Assembly (NCBI RefSeq): GCF_013167455.1 | Contig: NZ_CP038328.1 | Source: Escherichia coli O157:H7 | Lineage (GTDB): Bacteria; Pseudomonadota; Gammaproteobacteria; Enterobacterales; Enterobacteriaceae | Strand: one strand, 5' to 3' | Length of the DNA stretch: 64,000 bases | Shown: positions 158 to 49,975 of the stretch, piece after piece | How the letters are laid out: every line of letters begins with the position of its first letter | Position numbering within the stretch: the first letter of the stretch is position 1 | Notes under the pieces: model-generated | Database searches by the model: none | What the model saw: the letters and a program-made list of their open reading frames with translations, nothing else | What the model was told of the DNA's origin: nothing | Made by a program: the position numbers and the translations under genes

Positions 158-1447
158 ATGAAAGTATTAGTGATTGGTAACGGCGGGCGCGAGCACGCGC
201 TGGCCTGGAAAGCGGCCCAGTCGCCGCTGGTTGAGACTGTTTTTGTTGCTCCGGGTAACGCAGGCACAGCGCTGGAACCCACGCTGCAAAACGTCGCTAT
301 CGGCGTGACCGATATCCCGGCGCTGCTGGATTTCGCGCAAAACGAAAAGGTAGATCTAACCATCGTCGGCCCGGAAGCGCCGCTGGTGAAAGGCGTGGTC
401 GATACCTTCCGCGCCGCCGGGATGAAAATCTTCGGCCCAACCGCAGGCGCCGCACAGCTGGAAGGCTCGAAAGCGTTTACTAAAGATTTCCTGGCCCGCC
501 ATAACATTCCTACGGCGGAATATCAGAACTTCACCGAGGTAGAACCTGCGCTGGCGTATCTGCGTGAGAAAGGCGCGCCAATCGTCATTAAAGCGGACGG
601 TCTGGCTGCCGGGAAAGGCGTTATCGTGGCGATGACGCTGGAAGAAGCGGAAGCGGCTGTTCACGATATGCTGGCGGGCAACGCGTTTGGCGACGCGGGT
701 CATCGCATCGTTATCGAAGAGTTCCTCGACGGCGAAGAAGCGAGCTTTATCGTGATGGTGGACGGCGAGCATGTGCTGCCGATGGCCACCAGCCAGGATC
801 ACAAACGCGTAGGCGATAAAGATACCGGGCCGAACACGGGCGGAATGGGCGCTTACTCTCCTGCGCCGGTAGTGACAGATGACGTTCATCAGCGCACGAT
901 GGAACGTATCATCTGGCCAACCGTGAAAGGCATGGCGTCGGAAGGCAACACCTACACCGGTTTTCTCTACGCGGGCCTGATGATCGACAAACAGGGCAAT
1001 CCGAAGGTTATCGAATTTAACTGCCGCTTTGGCGATCCAGAAACCCAGCCGATTATGCTGCGCATGAAGTCCGATCTTGTTGAACTCTGCCTGGCGGCCT
1101 GTGAAGGCAAACTAGACGAGAAAACGTCAGAGTGGGATGAACGTGCTTCTCTCGGCGTGGTGATGGCTGCGGGTGGATATCCGGGCGATTACCGCACCGG
1201 TGACGTGATCCACGGCCTGCCGCTGGAAGAAGTGGAAGACGGCAAAGTGTTCCACGCGGGCACAAAACTGGCGGATGACGAGCAGGTGGTAACCAGCTGC
1301 GGGCGCGTACTGTGCGTCACCGCGCTGGGTCATACCGTAGCAGAAGCACAGAAACGCGCCTATGCCTTAATGACCGATATCCACTGGGACGACTGCTTCT
1401 GCCGGAAAGATATCGGCTGGCGCGCTATCGAACGCGAGCAGAACTAA
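158..1447 (+). CDS. purD: phosphoribosylamine-glycine ligase (GAR synthetase), 429 aa
   Basis: ORF 146..1447; conserved N-terminus MKVLVIGNGGREHALAWK begins at 158; ATP-grasp fold sequence. Confidence 0.95.
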   Translation: MKVLVIGNGGREHALAWKAAQSPLVETVFVAPGNAGTALEPTLQNVAIGVTDIPALLDFAQNEKVDLTIVGPEAPLVKGVVDTFRAAGMKIFGPTAGAAQLEGSKAFTKDFLARHNIPTAEYQNFTEVEPALAYLREKGAPIVIKADGLAAGKGVIVAMTLEEAEAAVHDMLAGNAFGDAGHRIVIEEFLDGEEASFIVMVDGEHVLPMATSQDHKRVGDKDTGPNTGGMGAYSPAPVVTDDVHQRTMERIIWPTVKGMASEGNTYTGFLYAGLMIDKQGNPKVIEFNCRFGDPETQPIMLRMKSDLVELCLAACEGKLDEKTSEWDERASLGVVMAAGGYPGDYRTGDVIHGLPLEEVEDGKVFHAGTKLADDEQVVTSCGRVLCVTALGHTVAEAQKRAYALMTDIHWDDCFCRKDIGWRAIEREQN

Positions 1448-2769
1448 CGCGACAATTTTGCCAACAGCGTTTTGCGCGTGATCCCTAACTGACGGGCGGC
1501 TTCGGTTTTGTTGCCGCCCGTTTTCTCCAGTGCCGCCAGAATCACTTCTTTTTCGACTTCCACCAGCGGCTGAATATCCAGGCTTTGTGCCAGCGGGATC
1601 GGCGTACTGGCAATCGCCAGCGGCAGCTCGCGTTCGGAAATATATTCCCCAGTCAGCAGCACCACCGCCCGTTCCACCGCATTTTCCAGTTCACGAATAT
1701 TTCCCGGCCAGTCGTAATGAATCAACAGATCCATCGCCTGGGGCGTAAAGCCTTTTACCGCCTTGCGATTACGTTCAGCAAAGCGCTGCAGAAAATGGCC
1801 AGCCAGCAGAGGAATATCTTCCCGCCGTTGCCGCAGCGATGGTACTTCAATCGCCACCACGTTCAGGCGATAGTAGAGATCCTGGCGAAAACGCCCGGCA
1901 TTCACCTCTGCGGCAAGATCGCGATGGGTCGCGGCAATCAGCCGGACATCAACCGAAATAGTCTGGTTGCTACCGACACACTGAACTTCGCGCTCCTGAA
2001 TCGCACGCAGCAGACGCACCAGCATCATCGGCGAGATATCGCCAATTTCATCGAGAAACAACGTGCCGCCGTCCGCCTCAACAAAGCGCCCTTCCCGGCG
2101 TTTATCGGCTCCAGTAAACGCCCCTTTTTCGTGACCGAACAATTCAGATTCCAGCAAGGATTCGTTGAGTGCCGCACAGTTGAGCGTTACCAGCGGTTTT
2201 TCGCTACGTGCGCTACTGGCGTGAATCGCCCTGGCGACCAGCTCTTTACCGGTGCCGGAATCGCCGTGGATCAGCACCGTGGCTTCCGATGGCGCGACGA
2301 GGGCGATTTCACTGAGCAGGTGTTGCATCGCCGGGCTTTTACCGACCATACCGAACTGGCTGGCAGTCACCGCAGGCGTTTCAGCATCAATAATGTGCGT
2401 ATGCGCGAGCGCCTTTTCCAGCGTCGCCTGCAGGTTATCGAAATCCAGCGGCTTGATGAGATAATCCAGCGCCCCGGTTTTCAACGCCTCTACCGCCGTC
2501 TCGACGCTAGAGTATGCGGTCATAATCAGTACCGGAATCGCCGGATTTAACGCTTTGATCTCTTTTAGCGTGGCAATGCCGTCCATCTCCGCCATTCGCA
2601 CATCGCAAAGCACAAGATCAAAAACCCGCTCCCGCACCTGCTCCAGCGCCTGTCGCCCGCTGTTCGCCAGCGCGACGTTATAGCCCCAGCCGCGCAGCAA
2701 AGCCTGCAAAATAGTGCAGTGGCTAATGTCATCATCCACCACCAGAATATCGATATTATCGTGCGTCAT
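1444..2769 (-). CDS. zraR: sigma54-dependent response regulator (receiver + AAA+ + HTH), 441 aa
   Basis: ORF track; receiver domain N-terminus, GDSGTGKE Walker A, GAFTGA sigma54-contact motif; convergent with purD, 3' ends overlap. Confidence 0.95.
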   Translation of the reverse strand: MTHDNIDILVVDDDISHCTILQALLRGWGYNVALANSGRQALEQVRERVFDLVLCDVRMAEMDGIATLKEIKALNPAIPVLIMTAYSSVETAVEALKTGALDYLIKPLDFDNLQATLEKALAHTHIIDAETPAVTASQFGMVGKSPAMQHLLSEIALVAPSEATVLIHGDSGTGKELVARAIHASSARSEKPLVTLNCAALNESLLESELFGHEKGAFTGADKRREGRFVEADGGTLFLDEIGDISPMMLVRLLRAIQEREVQCVGSNQTISVDVRLIAATHRDLAAEVNAGRFRQDLYYRLNVVAIEVPSLRQRREDIPLLAGHFLQRFAERNRKAVKGFTPQAMDLLIHYDWPGNIRELENAVERAVVLLTGEYISERELPLAIASTPIPLAQSLDIQPLVEVEKEVILAALEKTGGNKTEAARQLGITRKTLLAKLSR

Positions 2770-4142
2770 CCTTGTGGGTCCTTACGCGTAATATTGACCG
2801 GAAGCCAGAGGGTGAACCTTGCGCCTTTTCCCTCCAGGCTTGCGACCTGAATTGTACCACCGTGTTGTTCAACAATATTATGCACGACCGCCAGCCCCAG
2901 TCCGGTGCCTTCGGCTTTGGTGGTGAAGTACGGGGTGAAGATGGCTTCAAGCTGATCTGCCGCAATTCCCTTACCGCTGTCGGTAACGCTGATTTTCACG
3001 CCCGCGCCGCTTTCGCTGGCCGTCACGCTAATCACGCCATGCTGACCAATCGCCTGAATAGCATTGAGATAAAGATTCAACAGGACCTGAGTCAGCCTGT
3101 CCGGATCGGCCTGAATTTCCGGCAACGTGTCGTTGGCGGTAAAGCGTAACTGGATCTCCCGGCAGTTTGCATCCTGGCTTACCAGCTGTAATGAGTGGTT
3201 AATCAGCGTGTTGAGATCCACCGCCTGCAAAGCCAGATGCGTTGGCTTAACCAGTTCCAGCAGCTCGCTTACCACGCGGTTTAAACGGTCAGCTTCTTTC
3301 GCCATCACCTGCGCCAGTTGATGCGCTTCTCCCCCTGCTGGCGCGCGCTCGGCAAAGTATTTTGCCAGCCCTTTAATCGAGGAAAGCGGGTTACGAATTT
3401 CGTGGGCAACGCCTGCCGCAAGATGCCCCAGCGCCACCAGCTTCTCTTTGCGCTTCATTTCATCTTGTAGAAGCTGGCGCGAGCGCAGATAGCGGCGATA
3501 CCAGAAGAATGACAATACGCTTGCCAGCAAGACCGTCGCCAGGGCGAAGAGGATAATCAGGGTGTTTCTCTGCTCACGATCTTCGGCACTCACAATATTA
3601 CTGGCGTCGAAAGCGATGAAAATTGCTTGTGGTGTCGCGGCATACTGCTGCATATGGCGCATCCGGTGCATTCCAGCAGCAAACATCGGTTGAAACTGGC
3701 GATAAATTTCCAGAACAGGCTCGCCGTCTGCGCTATCGATCCGCCGCCACACTTCTTCATCTCCCGGATGTAACTGCTGCATTTCCTGCGGGGAATAAAG
3801 CTGTTTTCCCACCATGCCGGAGTTGCTATGCATCACGATTGTTCCTTGTTCATCCGTGACCGCAAACCAACGTACTCCAGGCTGCCCGGCCATTTCTTCC
3901 AGTAAGGCCTGCTGCTGCGCATGATGCATGCGCATCCCCATGCCGACGCGCGAGCCGGATTCGAGAGCACGAATAAGTACACTGCCTTTTTCCAGCAGCG
4001 TTTGTCTGGCGGCGGCAGTCTCGCGGCCATAATCGCGAATCACCGTCACCGCAAACAACCCTACCAGCCCAACAATGACCACGGGGAGGATCGCGCTTAA
4101 CCATTTAGCTAAGGAGTCTTTAGAACGTTGCATAAAACGCAT
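2766..4142 (-). CDS. zraS: sensor histidine kinase for Zn/Pb envelope stress, 458 aa
   Basis: ORF track; TM segments, HEIRNPL H-box, C-terminal ATPase domain; 4-nt overlap with zraR. Confidence 0.9.
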   Translation of the reverse strand: MRFMQRSKDSLAKWLSAILPVVIVGLVGLFAVTVIRDYGRETAAARQTLLEKGSVLIRALESGSRVGMGMRMHHAQQQALLEEMAGQPGVRWFAVTDEQGTIVMHSNSGMVGKQLYSPQEMQQLHPGDEEVWRRIDSADGEPVLEIYRQFQPMFAAGMHRMRHMQQYAATPQAIFIAFDASNIVSAEDREQRNTLIILFALATVLLASVLSFFWYRRYLRSRQLLQDEMKRKEKLVALGHLAAGVAHEIRNPLSSIKGLAKYFAERAPAGGEAHQLAQVMAKEADRLNRVVSELLELVKPTHLALQAVDLNTLINHSLQLVSQDANCREIQLRFTANDTLPEIQADPDRLTQVLLNLYLNAIQAIGQHGVISVTASESGAGVKISVTDSGKGIAADQLEAIFTPYFTTKAEGTGLGLAVVHNIVEQHGGTIQVASLEGKGARFTLWLPVNITRKDPQG

Positions 4143-4240
4143 CTTCTTCTTTGCCTGCTCATCCCTTTCTGACAGCAGAAATCATGCCATCTTTTATCAG
4201 CGCTTACCCTGCGCTGTAACACAAAGGCTTAAGTTTCAAT

Positions 4241-4286
4241 GAGTAAAAATGACTCGCTACCCGCAGCAGGCGAGTCATTTTTACTC
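4241..4286. promoter_or_regulatory. perfect 17-bp inverted repeat GAGTAAAAATGACTCGC / GCGAGTCATTTTTACTC with 12-bp spacer; candidate ZraR enhancer (UAS)
   Basis: Read directly from sequence; lies in the divergent zraP-zraSR control region upstream of the sigma54 element. Confidence 0.7.
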
Positions 4287-4328
4287 GTTTATCATGCCAG
4301 ATTACCCGTCATATCAGCGTTTCATCGT

Positions 4329-4344
4329 TGGCACGGAAGATGCA
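4329..4344 (+). promoter_or_regulatory. sigma54 -24/-12 promoter element (TGGCAC-N5-aTGCA) for zraP
   Basis: TGGCACggaagaTGCA at 4329-4344, about 36 nt upstream of the zraP start codon. Confidence 0.65.
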
Positions 4345-4379
4345 ATACCCGAAGTAAGACAACCACTGGAGGATTAACC

Positions 4380-4805
4380 ATGAAACGGAACACGAAAATT
4401 GCCCTGGTAATGATGGCGCTTTCAGCAATGGCGATGGGATCGACATCTGCATTTGCTCACGGCGGACACGGTATGTGGCAGCAAAATGCCGCGCCTTTGA
4501 CCAGCGAACAACAGACAGCGTGGCAGAAAATCCATAATGACTTTTACGCTCAAAGCAGCGCACTGCAACAGCAACTGGTGACGAAGCGTTATGAATACAA
4601 TGCCCTGTTAGCCGCGAACCCACCGGATAGCAGCAAAATTAACGCGGTCGCCAAAGAGATGGAGAATTTGCGTCAGTCGTTAGATGAGTTACGGGTGAAA
4701 CGGGATATTGCGATGGCTGAAGCGGGTATTCCGCGCGGAGCCGGAATGGGCATGGGCTACGGCGGCTGCGGTGGTGGCGGTCATATGGGTATGGGCCACT
4801 GGTAA
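4380..4805 (+). CDS. zraP: periplasmic zinc-binding stress chaperone, 141 aa
   Basis: MKRNTKIALVMMALSAMAMGSTSAFA signal peptide starts at 4380; Gly/Met/His-rich C-terminus; the ORF-track start at 4239 is an upstream in-frame extension over the palindrome. Confidence 0.9.
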   Translation: MKRNTKIALVMMALSAMAMGSTSAFAHGGHGMWQQNAAPLTSEQQTAWQKIHNDFYAQSSALQQQLVTKRYEYNALLAANPPDSSKINAVAKEMENLRQSLDELRVKRDIAMAEAGIPRGAGMGMGYGGCGGGGHMGMGHW

Positions 4806-4806
4806 A

Positions 4807-5508
4807 TCAGAACGTTTTCTCGTTGGGTTGCCAGCGACAGAAATCAGAGTTTGCCACTAACAGTAATTGCGAACCTTCGGGCGCTTCCAGCCATGCCACG
4901 CTGACATCAACAGAAGAGCGGCTCTGGCGGCGCTCGATATGCGCTATTGCCTGCGAATCTAAATCAGGTTTAATGGTTTGCCCTTCGCAGGTGGTCACGG
5001 TCTGTTCCATCGCATGCCAGCGCCCCTGGCGCAGCACGACTCTCCCCTGACGTAAGGCATCGCTAATCTGGCGGATCTGATCAGCCCGATAACGGTATAA
5101 ATCGATTTGGTCGTTAGAAAGCTGCTGCTTTTCCCCATCGGATTCACGTTGCATAAAGCTCAGATCACCGCGATCGTCAAAACGCGCGCGAATATTCACC
5201 GGGGGTTTGCTGTAAACATTGATATTGATGAGCGTGAGGTTATCGCCCTGCCAGCGATACTCTCGCGTCGTGGTATCGCCACTGCGCCACGGGCTAAACA
5301 CGGCAAGAAAATGCACATTATCGCCGCTGTCTTTTCGCCAGATGCGTACCGCGCCCTGGTCTTCAGCAAATCCACTGGCGGTAAAGGGAGGAAGTGAAGA
5401 GTTGTGACTACAAGCAGTGAGAAACAGAGCGCCAGCCAGCATCAATGATCGACGCCAGAAAGACAAAAGGGGTGAAACCACCCCTTCGTTAAAACTGTTC
5501 ACTGCCAC
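4807..5508 (-). CDS. yjaH: DUF1481-family protein, probable lipoprotein (start codon uncertain)
   Basis: ORF track, 233 aa; position between zraP and hupA as in K-12; hydrophobic N-terminus ending ...LTACS. Confidence 0.8.
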   Translation of the reverse strand: MAVNSFNEGVVSPLLSFWRRSLMLAGALFLTACSHNSSLPPFTASGFAEDQGAVRIWRKDSGDNVHFLAVFSPWRSGDTTTREYRWQGDNLTLININVYSKPPVNIRARFDDRGDLSFMQRESDGEKQQLSNDQIDLYRYRADQIRQISDALRQGRVVLRQGRWHAMEQTVTTCEGQTIKPDLDSQAIAHIERRQSRSSVDVSVAWLEAPEGSQLLLVANSDFCRWQPNEKTF

Positions 5509-8391: not shown

Positions 8392-9165
8392 TCACTCATA
8401 CTCTGCCCGACACATCGCCACCGTATCTTCTATCAGACGGCGCGCTACGGTGCCGGGCGGCGGGAGTAACGGCAAATCGTCATAGCGATACCAGTTCGCC
8501 TCGAGCAATTCTTTCGGGTCGATCACGATGTCGCCGCTGTCATATTCCGCCATAAACGCGGTCATTAAAGACTGAGGAAACGGCCACGGCTGGGAAGTCA
8601 CATAACGCAAGTGTTTAACTTTAATTCCGCTCTCTTCCATCACTTCCCGCGCGACCGCCTGCTCGAGGGTTTCGCCCACTTCGACGAATCCGGCAAGTAC
8701 CGTATGGACACCGTTACGATGGCGGGTATGCTGGGCGAGGAGGATCGAATCATCGCGACGGATGGCAACAATAATGCAGGGGGCGATTTGCGGGTAGTAA
8801 CGCTCACGGCAATGGCTGCACAGCATCGCCCATTCGGTTTTGCTTGGATACATTTCATGCCCGCAGTAACCACAGTATTTATGCGATCGGTAAAACTCCG
8901 CCAGTTGTACGCCACGTCCGGCCAGTTGAAACAGCCCAACATCGAGATCAATGACCTGACGTACCGACCCCATATCGTAACGCCGCTGCTGTTGTATTAA
9001 CCAAACAGGTTCCCCCTGCCATTCGCCGATTTGTAGTGCGCGCTGACCCACAAGATCGAAATTTGCCGCTTCGCCATATGGCAATTCTCCCTTCGGCAAC
9101 CATAATTTTTGTTCATGGCTGACGACCCACCAGCCGTGATCTAATTTTTCAATTATACGATCCAT
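8392..9165 (-). CDS. nudC: NADH pyrophosphatase (Nudix hydrolase, zinc ribbon), 257 aa
   Basis: ORF track; Cys cluster CGYCGH...CSHC and Nudix box. Confidence 0.93.
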
Positions 9166-9259
9166 AGCTCTTGCACTACCTTTGCATCACTGGCATGTTT
9201 AACATGGTTTTTACATTTCTCACTGAGCAGTTTTTGAATACAAACTTGCGGAGTCAATC

Positions 9260-9784: not shown

Positions 9785-9885
9785 GCTAATTTCTTGTCGG
9801 AGTGCCTTAACTGGCTGAGACCGTTTATTCGGGATCCGCGGAACCTGATCAGGCTAATACCTGCGAAGGGAACAAGAGTTAATCT
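9785..9885 (+). promoter_or_regulatory. TPP (thi-box) riboswitch in the thiC leader
   Basis: Conserved thi-box core CTGAGA...ACCTGATCaGGcTAATACCtGCGAAGGGAAC read at about 9812-9872, upstream of thiC. Confidence 0.85.
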
Positions 9886-9965
9886 GCTATCGCATCGCCT
9901 TTGCGGCGATCGTCTCTTGCTTCATCCGTCGTCTGACAAGCCACGTCCTTAACTTTTTGGAATGA

Positions 9966-15333: not shown

Positions 15334-15715
15334 GACGGAATGTAAGAACGAAAATTTATTCCGAGCCGCTACGGAAGATGAAAAACGCAAGGTTGTTGAA
15401 AGCGTTGTGTTTTTTTATGGTAGTGCCGTCAGCAGGAATGTTGTCCAGGGCGAAAAGCTTCTTCCTCGTTTCGCCCTGCCTTTCTTAAAAATTCCGTAAT
15501 GCAAAGTCTGAAGCCATCGCCTGTTGAGCAATGAAAGAGATCTGATTGTAAGAGAGTAAATACTCAACTATGATAGAGACGAAAATAAGAACACATGTTC
15601 TCATCTTCCAGGATGCAGCAGACTGAAGAAATTCAGACATCCCGCAACCTGCGATTATCGCAAGGTCAAGGCAAAGTCCGGTAATGGCGTTCTGAATACC
15701 AGAGATAATTCTCTG

Positions 15716-15750
15716 GCGAAACCCACCTTAAGGTGGGTTTTGTTATTTTG
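15716..15750 (+). terminator. hairpin plus T-run between convergent thiH and htrC, possibly bidirectional
   Basis: AAACCCACC-ttaa-GGTGGGTTT followed by TGTTATTTT, read from sequence. Confidence 0.55.
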
Positions 15751-25000: not shown

Positions 25001-25032
25001 CAAAAAGGCTGGTGACTAAAAAGTCACCAGCC
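25001..25032 (-). terminator. rplL-rpoB intercistronic attenuator hairpin (partial terminator)
   Basis: Minus-strand GGCTGGTGACT-ttttag-TCACCAGCC followed by TTTTTGC, about 40 nt 3' of the rplL stop. Confidence 0.6.
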
Positions 25033-25071
25033 ATCAGCCTGATTTCTCAGGCTGCAACCGGAAGGGTTGGC

Positions 25072-28518: not shown

Positions 28519-28689
28519 AAACCAACCTGTCAGAAGTTTTCTACAAACATTTTCACCCCGCGATCGCGAGGCAAACCAAATCGAAACGCGTATTAGCTTT
28601 TCGGATTATACGCCCTCAACAGAGCCTGTCTCAGCAATGATTATGACAAAGAAAATCACTGATGAGCCAGGTTCTGGTACGAAAGCGTG

Positions 28690-30046: not shown

Positions 30047-30122
30047 TGGTGCTGATAGGCAGATTCGAACTGCCGACCTCACCCTTACCAAGGGTGCGCT
30101 CTACCAACTGAGCTATATCAGC
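30047..30122 (-). tRNA. thrT: tRNA-Thr (anticodon GGU)
   Basis: Reverse complement reads GCTGATATAGCTCAGTTGGTAGAGCGCACCCTTGGTAAGGGTGAGGTCGGCAGTTCGAATCTGCCTATCAGCACCA. Confidence 0.95.
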
Positions 30123-30128
30123 ACATCT

Positions 30129-30203
<75 letters not shown>

Positions 30204-30319
30204 ATCCTGGAACTCGGCTACCTGATTTTCATTCTGCACTGAATATCGAGAGAAGCTCTCTTTATTCGAGCCGGTAAGCGAACTTATCGTCTCGGGCTAC
30301 GCCATCGCGTGGCCGAAAT

Positions 30320-30404
<85 letters not shown>

Positions 30405-30412
30405 GGACTTGA

Positions 30413-30488
<76 letters not shown>

Positions 30489-33953: not shown

Positions 33954-34073
33954 ATGCCTGGCAGTTCCCTACTCTCGCATGGGGAGACCCCACACTACCA
34001 TCGGCGCTACGGCGTTTCACTTCTGAGTTCGGCATGGGGTCAGGTGGGACCACCGCGCTAAGGCCGCCAGGCA
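33954..34073 (-). rRNA. rrfB: 5S ribosomal RNA, 120 nt
   Basis: Reverse complement matches E. coli 5S (TGCCTGGCGGCC...GGGAACTGCCAGGCAT) with one variant base near the 5' end. Confidence 0.95.
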
Positions 34074-34166
34074 AATTCTGTTTTATCAGACCGCTTCTGC
34101 GTTCTGATTTAATCTGTATCAGGCCGAAAATCTTCTCTCATCCGCCAAAACACCTTCGGCGTTGTA

Positions 34167-37070
<2,904 letters not shown>

Positions 37071-37263
37071 TCACAACCCGAAGATGTTTCTTTCGATTCA
37101 TCATCGTGTTGCGAAAATTTGAGAGACTCACGAACAACTCTCGTTGTTCAGTGTTTCAATTTTCAGCTTGATCCAGATTTTTAAAGAGCAAATATCTCAA
37201 ACATCACCCGAAGATGAGTTTTGAGATATTAAGGTCGGCGACTTTCACTCACAAACCAGCAAG

Positions 37264-37339
37264 TGGCGTCCCCTAGGGGATTCGAACCCCTGTTACCGCC
37301 GTGAAAGGGCGGTGTCCTGGGCCTCTAGACGAAGGGGAC
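37264..37339 (-). tRNA. gltT: spacer tRNA-Glu (anticodon UUC)
   Basis: Reverse complement reads GTCCCCTTCGTCTAGAGGCCCAGGACACCGCCCTTTCACGGCGGTAACAGGGGTTCGAATCCCCTAGGGGACGCCA. Confidence 0.95.
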
Positions 37340-37424
37340 GTATCAGTCTGCTTCGCAAGACGCCTTGCTTTTCACTTTCTATCAGACAATCTGTGTGAGC
37401 ACTGCAAAGTACGCTTCTTTAAGG

Positions 37425-38966
<1,542 letters not shown>

Positions 38967-39342: not shown

Positions 39343-40200
39343 TCAGCCTAAAACTGCCAGTTTTTCGAGCGTTTCGAAGCCGTAACGCTGTAAAACGGGC
39401 AATAATTGTTCAGCTTCTGGCGTCATTGCCATACAAAAGGCAATATTCGCATCGGCAGATTTTGCATCCGGGGCTTCATGTTCTAACAACCAGGCCGTTC
39501 GGCGAGCAATCGCTGCGCCAGAATCCACCAGCCGGGTTCCCTCTGGCAGCACTTGTAACAGTTCTTCTTGTAGTAGAGGGAAATGGGTGCAACCCAATAC
39601 AACGGTATCTGGCGGCTCTTTCATTCTTAACCACGGGCGTAGGATACGTTTTAGTGCATCCAGAGAAACATCTTCGCCATGCAGCTTCGCTTCAGCCAAC
39701 TCAACCATCTCTGCCGAGCCCAGCATTTCTATCTGGCATTCATTAGCGAAACGCGCGATCAGCTCATGAGTATAAGAACGTTTAACTGTTCCGCGGGTTG
39801 CCAGTAATCCGACAATGCCATTTGCCGTCAGACGTGCAGCAGGTTTAATCGCCGGCACGACACCAACAACCGGGAAGTCGAACTTTTCGCGTAATGCAGG
39901 AAGTGAAACGGTACTGGCAGTGTTGCAAGCGACCACAGCCAGCGCAAGGGGATAACGTTCTTGCACCGCGGTGACAATTGCCACCACTCGCTCAACAATA
40001 AACGCTTCGCTTTTTTCGCCATACGGGAAAGCGACGTTATCGAAAGCATAAATGTAATGGAGATCCGGTAAGAGATGCCGGATCTCGTCATAGACCGACA
40101 ACCCACCGACGCCGGAGTCAAACACCAGCACGGTGGGACGTGGTTCAGAAGGTGTAGCTGCCAGACAAGGTGTATTCCCGTCCTGCAGTTTGGTAGCCAT
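39343..40200 (-). CDS. murI: glutamate racemase, 285 aa
   Basis: ORF 39343..40212; likely start MATKLQDG at 40200; [11 protein letters not shown] motif; 5' end overlaps the btuB 3' end by 56 bp. Confidence 0.93.
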
Positions 40201-41989: not shown

Positions 41990-42235
41990 TGTAAAGCATC
42001 CACAATAGAAGAAGGATGCCGCAGGTTTCATCAATATTACGCGATGATGAGAACCAGATGCGACGTTGGCCGGCAGGTCTTCGGGCTTGGAGGGGTATCT
42101 AAGATACTAAGAGATGATGACTTCCCACCGAATGGCAGTGTCCGCATAACGCAATCATCGCACCTTTCCTTACCGCTGCGCGTCAGCTCCAGATTCGCAC
42201 TGGATTCCCTATTAACTCACAGGACCGGCAAGTGG
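41990..42235 (-). promoter_or_regulatory. cobalamin (AdoCbl) riboswitch in the btuB leader
   Basis: B12-box AAGCCCGAAGACCTGCCGGCC on the minus strand (plus-strand 42066-42088) within about 240 nt upstream of btuB. Confidence 0.8.
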
Positions 42236-42357
42236 ATGCTACAGGTTGTAACAAGTTACTGTCCAGACGTAGCTCACAAATAGGAATTCATCAAGATCTG
42301 GACATCTGATGAGCAATCCCTACAATCGCCGCGTACTTTAATTTTTCAGGATACATC

Positions 42358-49860: not shown

Positions 49861-49975
49861 AGAAACGGAGCGGCACCTCTTTTAACCCTTGAAGTCACTG
49901 CCCGTTTCGAGAGTTTCTCAACTCGAATAACTAAAGCCAACGTGAACTTTTGCGGATCTCCAGGATCCGCTTTTT
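49861..49975 (+). ncRNA. oxyS: OxyS small regulatory RNA
   Basis: GAAACGGAGCGGCACCTCTTTTAACCCTTGAAGTCACTGCCCGTTTCGAGAGTTTCTCAACTCGAATAACTAAAGCCAACGTGAACTTTTGCGGATCTCCAGGATCCGC plus T8 terminator matches OxyS as I remember it. Confidence 0.9.

What the first reader, a model, noticed from the sequence alone, without database searches (positions are those of the whole stretch)
4143..4379. zraP-zraSR divergent control region with a perfect 17-bp palindrome and a sigma54 promoter
A 17-bp perfect inverted repeat (GAGTAAAAATGACTCGC, 12-bp spacer, GCGAGTCATTTTTACTC; 4241-4286) lies 40-90 bp upstream of a TGGCAC-N5-TGCA element (4329-4344) that is correctly placed for zraP. This is the expected enhancer-plus-sigma54 architecture for ZraR-activated zraP and is well preserved. 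I could not find an equally good -24/-12 element for the divergent zraSR transcript (best candidate GCAGAAATCATGCCA on the plus strand around 4179-4196 has 12-nt rather than 11-nt spacing).
Basis: partly seen in the sequence, partly recalled or inferred. Interest (0 to 1): 0.15.

Follow-up and report, generated by a model that had tools for sequence, protein, structure and literature searches.

The report
Known ZraR enhancer with divergent sigma54 promoters

Summary
Window 4143-4379 is the E. coli zraS/zraP intergenic region. It is 100% identical to O157:H7 and a K-12 derivative and is present in 5419 of 5426 complete E. coli genomes.

- **Palindrome:** it is real (arms 4241-4257 and 4270-4286, 17/17, 12-nt spacer). 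It is the longest perfect inverted repeat in the 64-kb window, with a chance expectation of about 8e-5.
- **zraP promoter:** the -24/-12 element is real (TTGGCACGGAAGATGCA, 4328-4344, + strand).
- **zraSR promoter:** In a sigma54 weight-matrix scan trained without these sites, it and the zraP site are the two best hits of the window.
- **Published binding:** both 17-mers are the motifs under published sigma54 ChIP-seq peaks. The strongest published ZraR ChIP-exo peak maps to window 4250-4282, inside the palindrome.
- **Conservation:** across 15 loci from five genera, two 15-nt boxes (GRGTAAAAATGACYC) are conserved, always 31 bp centre to centre. The spacer sequence differs in every locus and arm changes are almost all one-sided. 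This fits two protein sites, not a hairpin.

Verdict: already known, low interest.

The parts
1444..2769 (-). zraR: sigma54-dependent response regulator (the enhancer-binding protein), 441 aa
   Evidence: ORF. Pfam finds Response_reg, Sigma54_activat, AAA_lid_14 and HTH_8. RefSeq names the same gene zraR in an O157:H7 genome whose intergenic region is identical. It differs from K-12 ZraR at 7 residues.
2766..4142 (-). zraS: sensor histidine kinase, 458 aa
   Evidence: ORF. Pfam finds HisKA and HATPase_c. RefSeq annotation.
4174..4190 (-). sigma54 promoter of zraSR: ATGGCATGATTTCTGCT. The -24 GG is at 4188-4187 and the -12 GC at 4176-4175. The predicted start is near 4163, 21 nt before the ATG at 4142.
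   Evidence: Best weight-matrix hit of the whole window at 17.8 bits. Identical to the motif of sigma54 ChIP-seq peak OS39 (PMC4591121) and to the site listed in PMC2831329. Near-invariant in 15 loci from 5 genera. The Salmonella homologue TGGCATGATCTCTGCTTA is bound in ChIP-chip.
4241..4255 (+). ZraR box 1 (GAGTAAAAATGACTC, centre 4248), with internal partial dyad GAGT-N7-ACTC
   Evidence: Left arm of the palindrome. The consensus GRGTAAAAATGACYC is conserved in all 15 loci. The published ZraR ChIP-exo peak maps to 4250-4282, spanning box 1 and box 2.
4256..4271 (.). Stretch between the two boxes. Its length is constant but its sequence is free. The central 12 nt are the palindrome spacer.
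   Evidence: 15 different spacer sequences in 15 loci, always 12 nt. Palindrome positions 16-17 also vary.
4272..4286 (-). ZraR box 2 (reads GAGTAAAAATGACTC on the minus strand, centre 4279), 31 bp from box 1
   Evidence: Right arm of the palindrome. GTCATTTTTACTC is invariant in 15 loci and the 31-bp spacing is invariant. These are the only two zero-mismatch copies of the box in the window.
4328..4344 (+). sigma54 promoter of zraP: TTGGCACGGAAGATGCA. The -24 GG is at 4330-4331 and the -12 GC at 4342-4343. The predicted start is near 4355, 25 nt before the ATG.
   Evidence: Second-best weight-matrix hit of the window at 15.4 bits. Identical to the motif of sigma54 ChIP-seq peak OS38 and to the site in PMC2831329. 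Conserved across genera. The same core is bound in Salmonella ChIP-chip.
4368..4373 (+). Shine-Dalgarno sequence GGAGGA of zraP
   Evidence: Read from the sequence. Conserved as GGAGRA or GAGGA in the alignment.
4380..4805 (+). zraP: periplasmic zinc-dependent chaperone and repressor of the system, 141 aa
   Evidence: ORF frame established. Pfam Metal_resist. RefSeq annotation.

Best explanation
The region is the shared enhancer-promoter module of the ZraPSR envelope-stress/zinc system of E. coli.

**Layout.** Two copies of a 15-nt ZraR recognition box (GRGTAAAAATGACYC) lie in inverted orientation, with centres at 4248 and 4279. That is 31 bp, about three helical turns, apart. In E. coli the pair happens to form a perfect 17-bp palindrome. 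The pair sits almost midway between two divergent sigma54 (-24/-12) promoters. The zraP promoter is at 4328-4344 (+) and the zraSR promoter at 4190-4174 (-).

**Mechanism (inferred from the NtrC family).**
1. Sigma54 holoenzyme occupies both promoters as closed complexes.
2. When ZraS phosphorylates ZraR (zinc or envelope stress), ZraR dimers on the two boxes assemble into the active AAA+ oligomer.
3. By DNA looping, the oligomer contacts either closed complex and uses ATP to open it.
4. This gives strong induction of zraP and positive autoregulation of zraSR.

**What is shown and what is inferred.**
- Shown here: the sequence elements, their statistical distinctness, their conservation and their fixed geometry.
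- Taken from the literature for an identical sequence: sigma54 binding, ZraR binding, and the ZraR dependence of both transcripts.
- Inferred: one ZraR dimer per box, looping, and the exact start sites (about 4355 and 4163).
For: **Identity of the locus**
- The intergenic region is 100% identical to O157:H7 and to the K-12 derivative KLY. It is present in 5419 of 5426 complete E. coli genomes.
- The flanking genes are annotated zraR, zraS and zraP, with the expected Pfam domains.

**Promoters**
- I built a weight matrix from 40 published intergenic sigma54 sites, leaving out the two zra sites. Its two best hits in the 64-kb window are 4174-4190 (-) at 17.8 bits and 4328-4344 (+) at 15.4 bits.
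- A shuffled window yields 0.05 hits at or above 17.8 bits and 0.31 at or above 15.4 bits.
- Both 17-mers are the motifs under sigma54 ChIP-seq peaks OS39 and OS38 (PMC4591121).
- They are listed as sigma54 promoters in PMC2831329.
- The spacer is bound by RpoN holoenzyme in vitro (PMC8743547).
- The Salmonella homologues are bound in ChIP-chip and expressed in a sigma54-dependent way (PMC3844500).

**Enhancer**
- The palindrome is far beyond chance.
- ZraR ChIP-exo peak_9 (signal/noise 73) maps to window 4250-4282.
- Genomic SELEX finds this spacer as the single high-affinity ZraR target (PMC8249747).
- Deleting zraR under zinc lowers zraP by log2 12.7 and zraS by log2 3.2.

**Phylogenetic footprint (loci from Escherichia, Citrobacter, Salmonella, Kosakonia, Pluralibacter)**
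- Only the two boxes, the two -24/-12 elements and the zraP Shine-Dalgarno sequence and start codon are conserved.
- Box spacing is 31 bp in all 15 loci.
- The Escherichia loci differ from all other genera by an 11-bp indel (one helical turn) between box 2 and the zraP promoter. Helical phase is therefore kept.
Against: - Nothing found contradicts the reading.
- The original ZraR footprinting paper (Leonhartsberger et al. 2001, J Mol Biol) is not held in the library. The exact footprint limits could not be compared. My recollection that it describes two inverted repeats separated by a 14-bp spacer is from memory only.
- According to PMC4591121, EcoCyc listed both promoters as 'predicted' rather than experimentally confirmed. 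The start sites given here are predictions.
- A Salmonella review lists the ZraR enhancer consensus as 'not known'.
- Consensus matching alone does not discriminate. TGGCAC-N5-TTGCW with up to 2 mismatches gives 47 hits in the window against 39 expected.
Confidence: 0.95

Rival explanations
1. The palindrome works as a nucleic-acid structure rather than as protein-binding sites. It could be an RNA hairpin (terminator or attenuator of read-through transcripts) or a DNA cruciform.
For: As RNA the segment would fold into a long perfect hairpin, -29.6 kcal/mol with z = -8.3 against shuffles. Any perfect palindrome does this.
Against: - It lies upstream of both predicted start sites, so neither sigma54 transcript contains it.
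- The scan found no terminator-like site. The stem is A/T-rich and has no T run after it.
- Across 15 loci the arms are only 13-17/17 complementary. Changes are one-sided in every case but one (C-A, A-C and G-T pairs). The 'loop' keeps its length exactly while its sequence is free. That pattern fits two spaced protein sites.
- A ZraR ChIP-exo peak sits on it.
Confidence: 0.02
2. The conserved sequence reflects a small protein gene. The 42-codon ORF at 4249-4377 is annotated as a hypothetical protein (WP_001297563.1) in some RefSeq E. coli genomes.
For: The ORF exists in the window. It is annotated in O157:H7 strain PV15-279. It stays open in four other Escherichia loci.
Against: - In E. albertii the start codon is ACG and the frame has a stop.
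- In Citrobacter, Salmonella, Kosakonia and Pluralibacter the frame is shifted or interrupted.
- The only 'conserved peptide' stretches coincide with box 2 and with the -24/-12 element.
- It is not annotated in the K-12 derivative, whose DNA is identical.
- It would begin upstream of the zraP start site.
Confidence: 0.02
3. The 46-bp palindrome is one composite site, each 17-bp arm being a half-site for a single symmetric ZraR assembly. The alternative favoured here is two independent dimer sites, each with its own internal dyad.
For: The two arms are perfect mirror images in E. coli. Their A-tract polarity is kept inverted in all 15 loci. The arrangement as a whole is therefore symmetric.
Against: - Each box has its own partial dyad, GAGT-N7-ACTC. 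Its half-site centres are 11 bp apart, the usual reach of a helix-turn-helix dimer. The box centres are 31 bp apart, too far for one dimer (read from the sequence; geometry).
- Paired dimer sites about three turns apart are the norm for NtrC-type activators (general knowledge).
- The sequence data cannot settle stoichiometry.
Confidence: 0.1

Closest known systems
The E. coli K-12 zraP-zraSR (formerly hydHG) intergenic control region itself. It was described by Leonhartsberger et al. 2001 (from memory, paper not held). It was mapped genome-wide in PMC4591121 (sigma54 ChIP-seq), PMC7657598 (ZraR ChIP-exo) and PMC8249747 (ZraR genomic SELEX).
   Same: The 237-bp sequence is identical to that of the K-12 derivative KLY. 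The sigma54 motifs are the same. The ZraR peak falls on the palindrome. The gene order is the same.
   Different: Nothing differs in the control region. The adjacent zraS in the window carries the more common, non-K-12 allele of the periplasmic sensor domain.
NtrC enhancer at glnAp2 and other NtrC-family upstream activating sequences
   Same: Paired dyad-symmetric activator sites about three helical turns apart, roughly 75-115 bp upstream of a -24/-12 promoter. The activator has REC, AAA+ and Fis-type HTH domains.
   Different: The box sequence differs. One enhancer is placed symmetrically to serve two divergent sigma54 promoters.
The divergent hyc/hyp sigma54 promoters of E. coli (OS27 hycA and OS28 hypA in PMC4591121)
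   Same: Back-to-back sigma54 promoters in one intergenic region, each with a sigma54 ChIP-seq peak.
   Different: They have a different activator (FhlA) and a different enhancer sequence. I did not examine how their activator sites are arranged.

Membership tests
sigma54-dependent (-24/-12) promoter | GG and GC dinucleotides separated by exactly 10 nt within a TGGCAC-N5-TTGCW-like context | tested here: met
   zraP: GG at 4330-4331 and GC at 4342-4343, 1 mismatch to the consensus. zraS: GG at 4188-4187 and GC at 4176-4175, 2 mismatches. Weight-matrix scores are 15.4 and 17.8 bits, ranks 2 and 1 in the window.
sigma54-dependent (-24/-12) promoter | Correct orientation and a short distance to a downstream gene | tested here: met
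   The motif centres lie 44 nt (zraP) and 40 nt (zraS) upstream of the start codons. The predicted leaders are 25 and 21 nt.
sigma54-dependent (-24/-12) promoter | Occupied by sigma54 holoenzyme | not testable with these tools
   Literature for the identical sequence: ChIP-seq peaks OS38 (FAT 39) and OS39 (FAT 9) in PMC4591121; RpoN holoenzyme genomic SELEX peak in PMC8743547; Salmonella ChIP-chip in PMC3844500.
sigma54-dependent (-24/-12) promoter | Transcription requires rpoN and an ATP-hydrolysing enhancer-binding protein | not testable with these tools
   Literature: a zraR knockout lowers zraP and zraS expression under zinc. The rpoN-dependent listing is in PMC2831329.
Enhancer (upstream activating sequence) of an NtrC-family activator | Dyad-symmetric sites, usually paired on the same face of the helix, about 70-150 bp upstream of the promoter | tested here: met
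   Two boxes with the internal dyad GAGT-N7-ACTC, 31 bp centre to centre in all 15 loci. They lie at about -76 and -107 from the zraP start and about -85 and -116 from the zraS start.
Enhancer (upstream activating sequence) of an NtrC-family activator | Cognate activator with a sigma54-interaction AAA+ domain and a DNA-binding domain is encoded nearby | tested here: met
   ZraR (1444-2769) has the Pfam domains Response_reg, Sigma54_activat and HTH_8.
Enhancer (upstream activating sequence) of an NtrC-family activator | Bound by the activator | not testable with these tools
   Published ZraR ChIP-exo peak_9 converts to window 4250-4282. Genomic SELEX finds this spacer as the single high-affinity target.
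Enhancer (upstream activating sequence) of an NtrC-family activator | Conserved as sequence motifs with fixed spacing rather than as a base-paired structure | tested here: met
   Boxes conserved; 15 of 15 spacers differ in sequence and all have equal length; arm changes are one-sided.
Intrinsic terminator or structured RNA element | G+C-rich stem followed by a T run; compensatory changes that keep the pairing | tested here: not met
   No terminator-like site between 4000 and 4900. One double change against many one-sided changes. No Rfam match in the region.

The most novel reading that the evidence does not exclude
Besides the known boxes and promoters, the zraS side of the spacer holds a short semi-conserved block: TTACCCTG at 4203-4211 (TAACCCTG-like in most genera), followed by ACACAA at 4220-4225, which is conserved only in Escherichia and Citrobacter. 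It lies between box 1 and the zraS -24 element. It could be the site of an unrecognised architectural or regulatory factor that sets how the single enhancer is shared between the two promoters. That would help explain why zraP responds far more strongly than zraSR. The 11-bp indel on the zraP side keeps helical phase and fits a strict looping geometry.
Probability: 0.12. Interest if true: 0.25.

Novelty: already known. Interest (0 to 1): 0.06.

Why it matters
It matters little beyond correct annotation, because this is a textbook-type sigma54 enhancer-promoter module that has been mapped by ChIP-seq, ChIP-exo and genomic SELEX.

The second look adds four things:
1. The zraSR promoter is canonical, not aberrant.
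2. The conserved unit is two 15-nt boxes at a fixed 31-bp spacing, not the palindrome as such.
3. A comparative footprint gives a ZraR box consensus (GRGTAAAAATGACYC). One Salmonella review still lists that consensus as unknown.
4. The 42-codon ORF that some RefSeq records annotate across the enhancer is probably spurious.

Tried and rejected
- **Plain consensus search.** TGGCAC-N5-TTGCW with up to 2 mismatches gave 47 hits against 39 expected, so it does not discriminate. I replaced it with a weight matrix trained on published sites without the zra sites.
- **Original footprint paper.** I tried to read Leonhartsberger et al. 2001 (PMID 11243806), but it is not held. Text searches for its description ('14 bp spacer' with HydG; hydG/zraP/inverted repeats) found nothing. 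I used ChIP-exo coordinates from PMC7657598 instead.
- **Sigma70 promoter and terminator scan of 4000-4900.** Nothing found.
- **RNA fold of the palindrome.** It folds well, but that is uninformative for a perfect palindrome.
- **Coding reading of ORF 4249-4377.** Rejected on conservation.
- **IHF site.** I looked by eye for an IHF consensus (WATCAANNNNTTR) between the boxes and either promoter. Only poor, non-conserved partial matches turned up, so no claim is made.
- **Further ZraR boxes.** None exist in the window. Matches with 3 mismatches are at chance level.
- **Other sigma54 matrix hits.** Hits of 13-14.4 bits elsewhere in the window (28633-, 9170+, 39505-, 8762+) do not appear in the main text or its tables of PMC4591121 and are within chance.
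- **First related-loci call.** It failed because of a frame error of one base and was repeated correctly.

Full report
**What is in the sequence.** Window 4143-4379 is the 237-bp spacer between two divergent genes. One is a minus-strand ORF ending its 5' end at 4142. It encodes a 458-aa histidine kinase and is followed by a 441-aa response regulator at 1444-2769. The other is a plus-strand ORF starting at 4380 (141 aa). Pfam assigns HisKA and HATPase_c to the kinase. It assigns Response_reg, Sigma54_activat, AAA_lid_14 and the Fis-type HTH_8 to the regulator, and Metal_resist to the small protein. The spacer is 100% identical to E. coli O157:H7 and to the K-12 derivative KLY. It is found in 5419 of 5426 complete E. 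coli genomes, at 95% identity or more in all but 22. RefSeq names the genes zraR, zraS and zraP.

**Checking the palindrome.** The arms are 4241-4257 and 4270-4286, 17/17 complementary, with a 12-nt spacer. It is the longest perfect inverted repeat with a spacer of 20 nt or less in the 64-kb window, the runner-up having 12-nt arms. The expectation for arms of 17 nt or more is about 8e-5.

**Checking the zraP promoter.** The element is also there. Its literal form is TGGCAC-N6-TGCA, which equals the canonical TGGCAC-N5-TTGCA with an A at the first T. GG is at 4330-4331 and GC at 4342-4343, 10 nt apart.

**Checking the zraSR candidate.** The string GCAGAAATCATGCCA lies at 4175-4189, not 4179-4196. 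Read on the minus strand it is TGGCAT-GATTT-CTGCT, with GG-N10-GC, the same spacing as the zraP element.

I built a 17-column matrix from 40 intergenic sigma54 sites in Table 1 of Bonocora et al. 2015 (PMC4591121), leaving out the two zra sites. The two best hits on either strand of the whole window are ATGGCATGATTTCTGCT at 4174-4190 (-) with 17.8 bits and TTGGCACGGAAGATGCA at 4328-4344 (+) with 15.4 bits. The median training-site score is 15.7 bits. Shuffled windows yield 0.05 and 0.31 hits at those thresholds. Two such hits 154 bp apart, divergent, each correctly placed before a gene, are therefore not chance.

**Comparison with published binding data.**
- The same two 17-mers are the motifs under sigma54 ChIP-seq peaks OS38 (zraP, FAT 39) and OS39 (zraS, FAT 9) in K-12.
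- Zhao et al. list both as sigma54 promoters (PMC2831329).
- RpoN holoenzyme binds this spacer in genomic SELEX (PMC8743547).
- In Salmonella the homologous sites TGGCACGGAAGATGCAAG and TGGCATGATCTCTGCTTA are bound in ChIP-chip, and both operons are sigma54-dependent (PMC3844500).
- For ZraR, the supplement of Choudhary et al. (PMC7657598) gives ChIP-exo peak_9 (signal/noise 73) at K-12 4201786-4201818. The spacer is identical in sequence and length, and the zraP ATG is K-12 4201688 = window 4380, so this converts to window 4250-4282. Its centre is at 4266, against the palindrome centre at 4263.5.
- Genomic SELEX found this spacer as the single high-affinity ZraR target (PMC8249747).
- Deleting zraR under zinc lowers zraP by log2 12.7 and zraS by log2 3.2.
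- The original footprinting paper could not be read.

**Comparative footprint.** Using ZraP as the handle, I collected 14 further loci from E. coli, E. whittamii, E. albertii, another Escherichia, several Citrobacter, Salmonella, Kosakonia and Pluralibacter. In the alignments the spacer is otherwise randomised. Five islands survive:
1. The zraS -24/-12 element.
2. GRGTAAAAATGACYC (box 1).
3. GRGTCATTTTTACTC (box 2).
4. The zraP -24/-12 element.
5. The zraP Shine-Dalgarno sequence and start codon.

The perfect 17/17 palindrome is confined to E. coli and E. whittamii. Elsewhere 13-16 of 17 positions are complementary. Positions 16-17 of the arm are free, and changes are one-sided in all cases but one. 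All 15 spacers differ in sequence but are always 12 nt. The conserved unit is thus a 15-nt box present twice in inverted orientation, 31 bp centre to centre in every locus. Each box has its own partial dyad, GAGT-N7-ACTC, with half-sites 11 bp apart. That is what a helix-turn-helix dimer would read. One dimer per box is my inference, not something I tested.

**Geometry.** I use the convention of PMC4591121, which places the start 19 bp downstream of the motif centre. The predicted starts are about 4355 (zraP, 25-nt leader) and about 4163 (zraS, 21-nt leader). The boxes then lie at about -76 and -107 for zraP and about -85 and -116 for zraS. One enhancer therefore sits almost midway between two divergent promoters. 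From the palindrome centre to the zraS motif centre is 80.5-81.5 bp in all loci. To the zraP motif centre it is 72.5 bp (71.5 in E. albertii) in Escherichia and 83.5 bp in every other genus. That is an 11-bp, one-helical-turn, difference that preserves the face of the helix.

**Mechanism.** By analogy with NtrC-type activators (established knowledge of the family), sigma54 holoenzyme waits as a closed complex at both promoters. Phosphorylated ZraR assembles on the box pair into the active AAA+ ring. It then loops to either promoter to drive open-complex formation. This induces the chaperone/feedback protein ZraP and autoinduces ZraSR. The binding and dependence steps are documented in the cited papers. 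Looping, stoichiometry and the exact start sites are inferred.

**Rivals.**
- *Hairpin, terminator or cruciform.* The RNA fold is strong, as for any palindrome. However, the element is upstream of both predicted starts, no terminator-like site is found, Rfam has nothing there, and the variation pattern is not compensatory.
- *Coding reading of the 42-codon ORF 4249-4377.* Some RefSeq records annotate it, but it fails on conservation.

**Verdict.** The supposed weakness of the zraSR promoter is a counting error. Everything essential is already in the literature, so novelty is 'already known' and interest is low.

Noticed in passing
window 3550-4030 (zraS codons about 41-196, periplasmic sensor domain): The ZraS sensor domain is sharply dimorphic in E. 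coli. 4183 genomes are at least 95% identical to the window allele and 1236 genomes are only 60-80% identical, with none in between. The adjacent spacer is at least 95% identical in almost all genomes. Against K-12 ZraS (465 aa) the window protein (458 aa) is 85% identical overall. Nearly all differences and the 7-residue gap fall in residues 41-196, and the rest is about 98% identical.
   Followed up: partly
window 4249-4377 (+): A 42-codon ORF spans box 1, box 2 and the zraP promoter. It is annotated as a hypothetical protein (WP_001297563.1) in O157:H7 strain PV15-279 but not in the K-12 derivative, whose DNA is identical. It is not conserved as a reading frame outside E. coli and its closest Escherichia relatives, so it is probably a spurious call.
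   Followed up: yes
window 4287-4327: All non-Escherichia genera have 11 more bp between box 2 and the zraP -24 element than the Escherichia loci. This is a one-helical-turn indel that keeps the enhancer and promoter in phase.
   Followed up: partly
window 4203-4226: Semi-conserved blocks with no assigned function lie between the zraS promoter and box 1. TTACCCTG (TAACCCTG-like in most genera) is at 4203-4211. ACACAA at 4220-4225 is invariant in the Escherichia and C. amalonaticus-group loci but degenerate in C. rodentium, Salmonella, Kosakonia and Pluralibacter.
   Followed up: partly
window 4284-4300 (-): A second copy of TGGCATGAT (direct repeat ATCATGCCA at 4181-4189 and 4291-4299) gives a -24-like element right next to box 2, but no -12 GC. 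Its matrix score is only 6.6 bits and it is not conserved in E. whittamii or beyond. It is probably chance.
   Followed up: partly
window 4370-4395: A second published ZraR ChIP-exo peak (peak_8, signal/noise 34; K-12 4201673-4201698) converts to the zraP start-codon region, just downstream of the predicted zraP start. It might reflect cross-linking of looped ZraR to the promoter complex. This was not tested.
   Followed up: no
window 1444-2769 (-): ZraR differs from the K-12 protein at seven residues: R48Q, I126S, L250Q, C264R, T270I, A394G and L397Q, written as window residue, position, K-12 residue. Three fall within the sigma54-interaction AAA+ domain. Consequences unknown.
   Followed up: no
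window 9788-9888, 15581-15741, 25006-25067, 30050-30488, 33956-38966, 42055-42244, 49862-49971: Ordinary RNA features of this E. coli chromosome region reach Rfam gathering scores. They are a TPP riboswitch, sroH, a P26-family match, four tRNAs, an rRNA operon (5S, 23S, a spacer tRNA, 16S and a StyR-44 match in the spacer), a cobalamin riboswitch and OxyS.
   Followed up: no
window 28633-28649 (-), 9170-9186 (+), 39505-39521 (-), 8762-8778 (+): These are the next-best sigma54 matrix hits (13.2-14.4 bits). They are at the level reached by shuffled sequence and do not appear in the main text or its tables of PMC4591121.
   Followed up: partly
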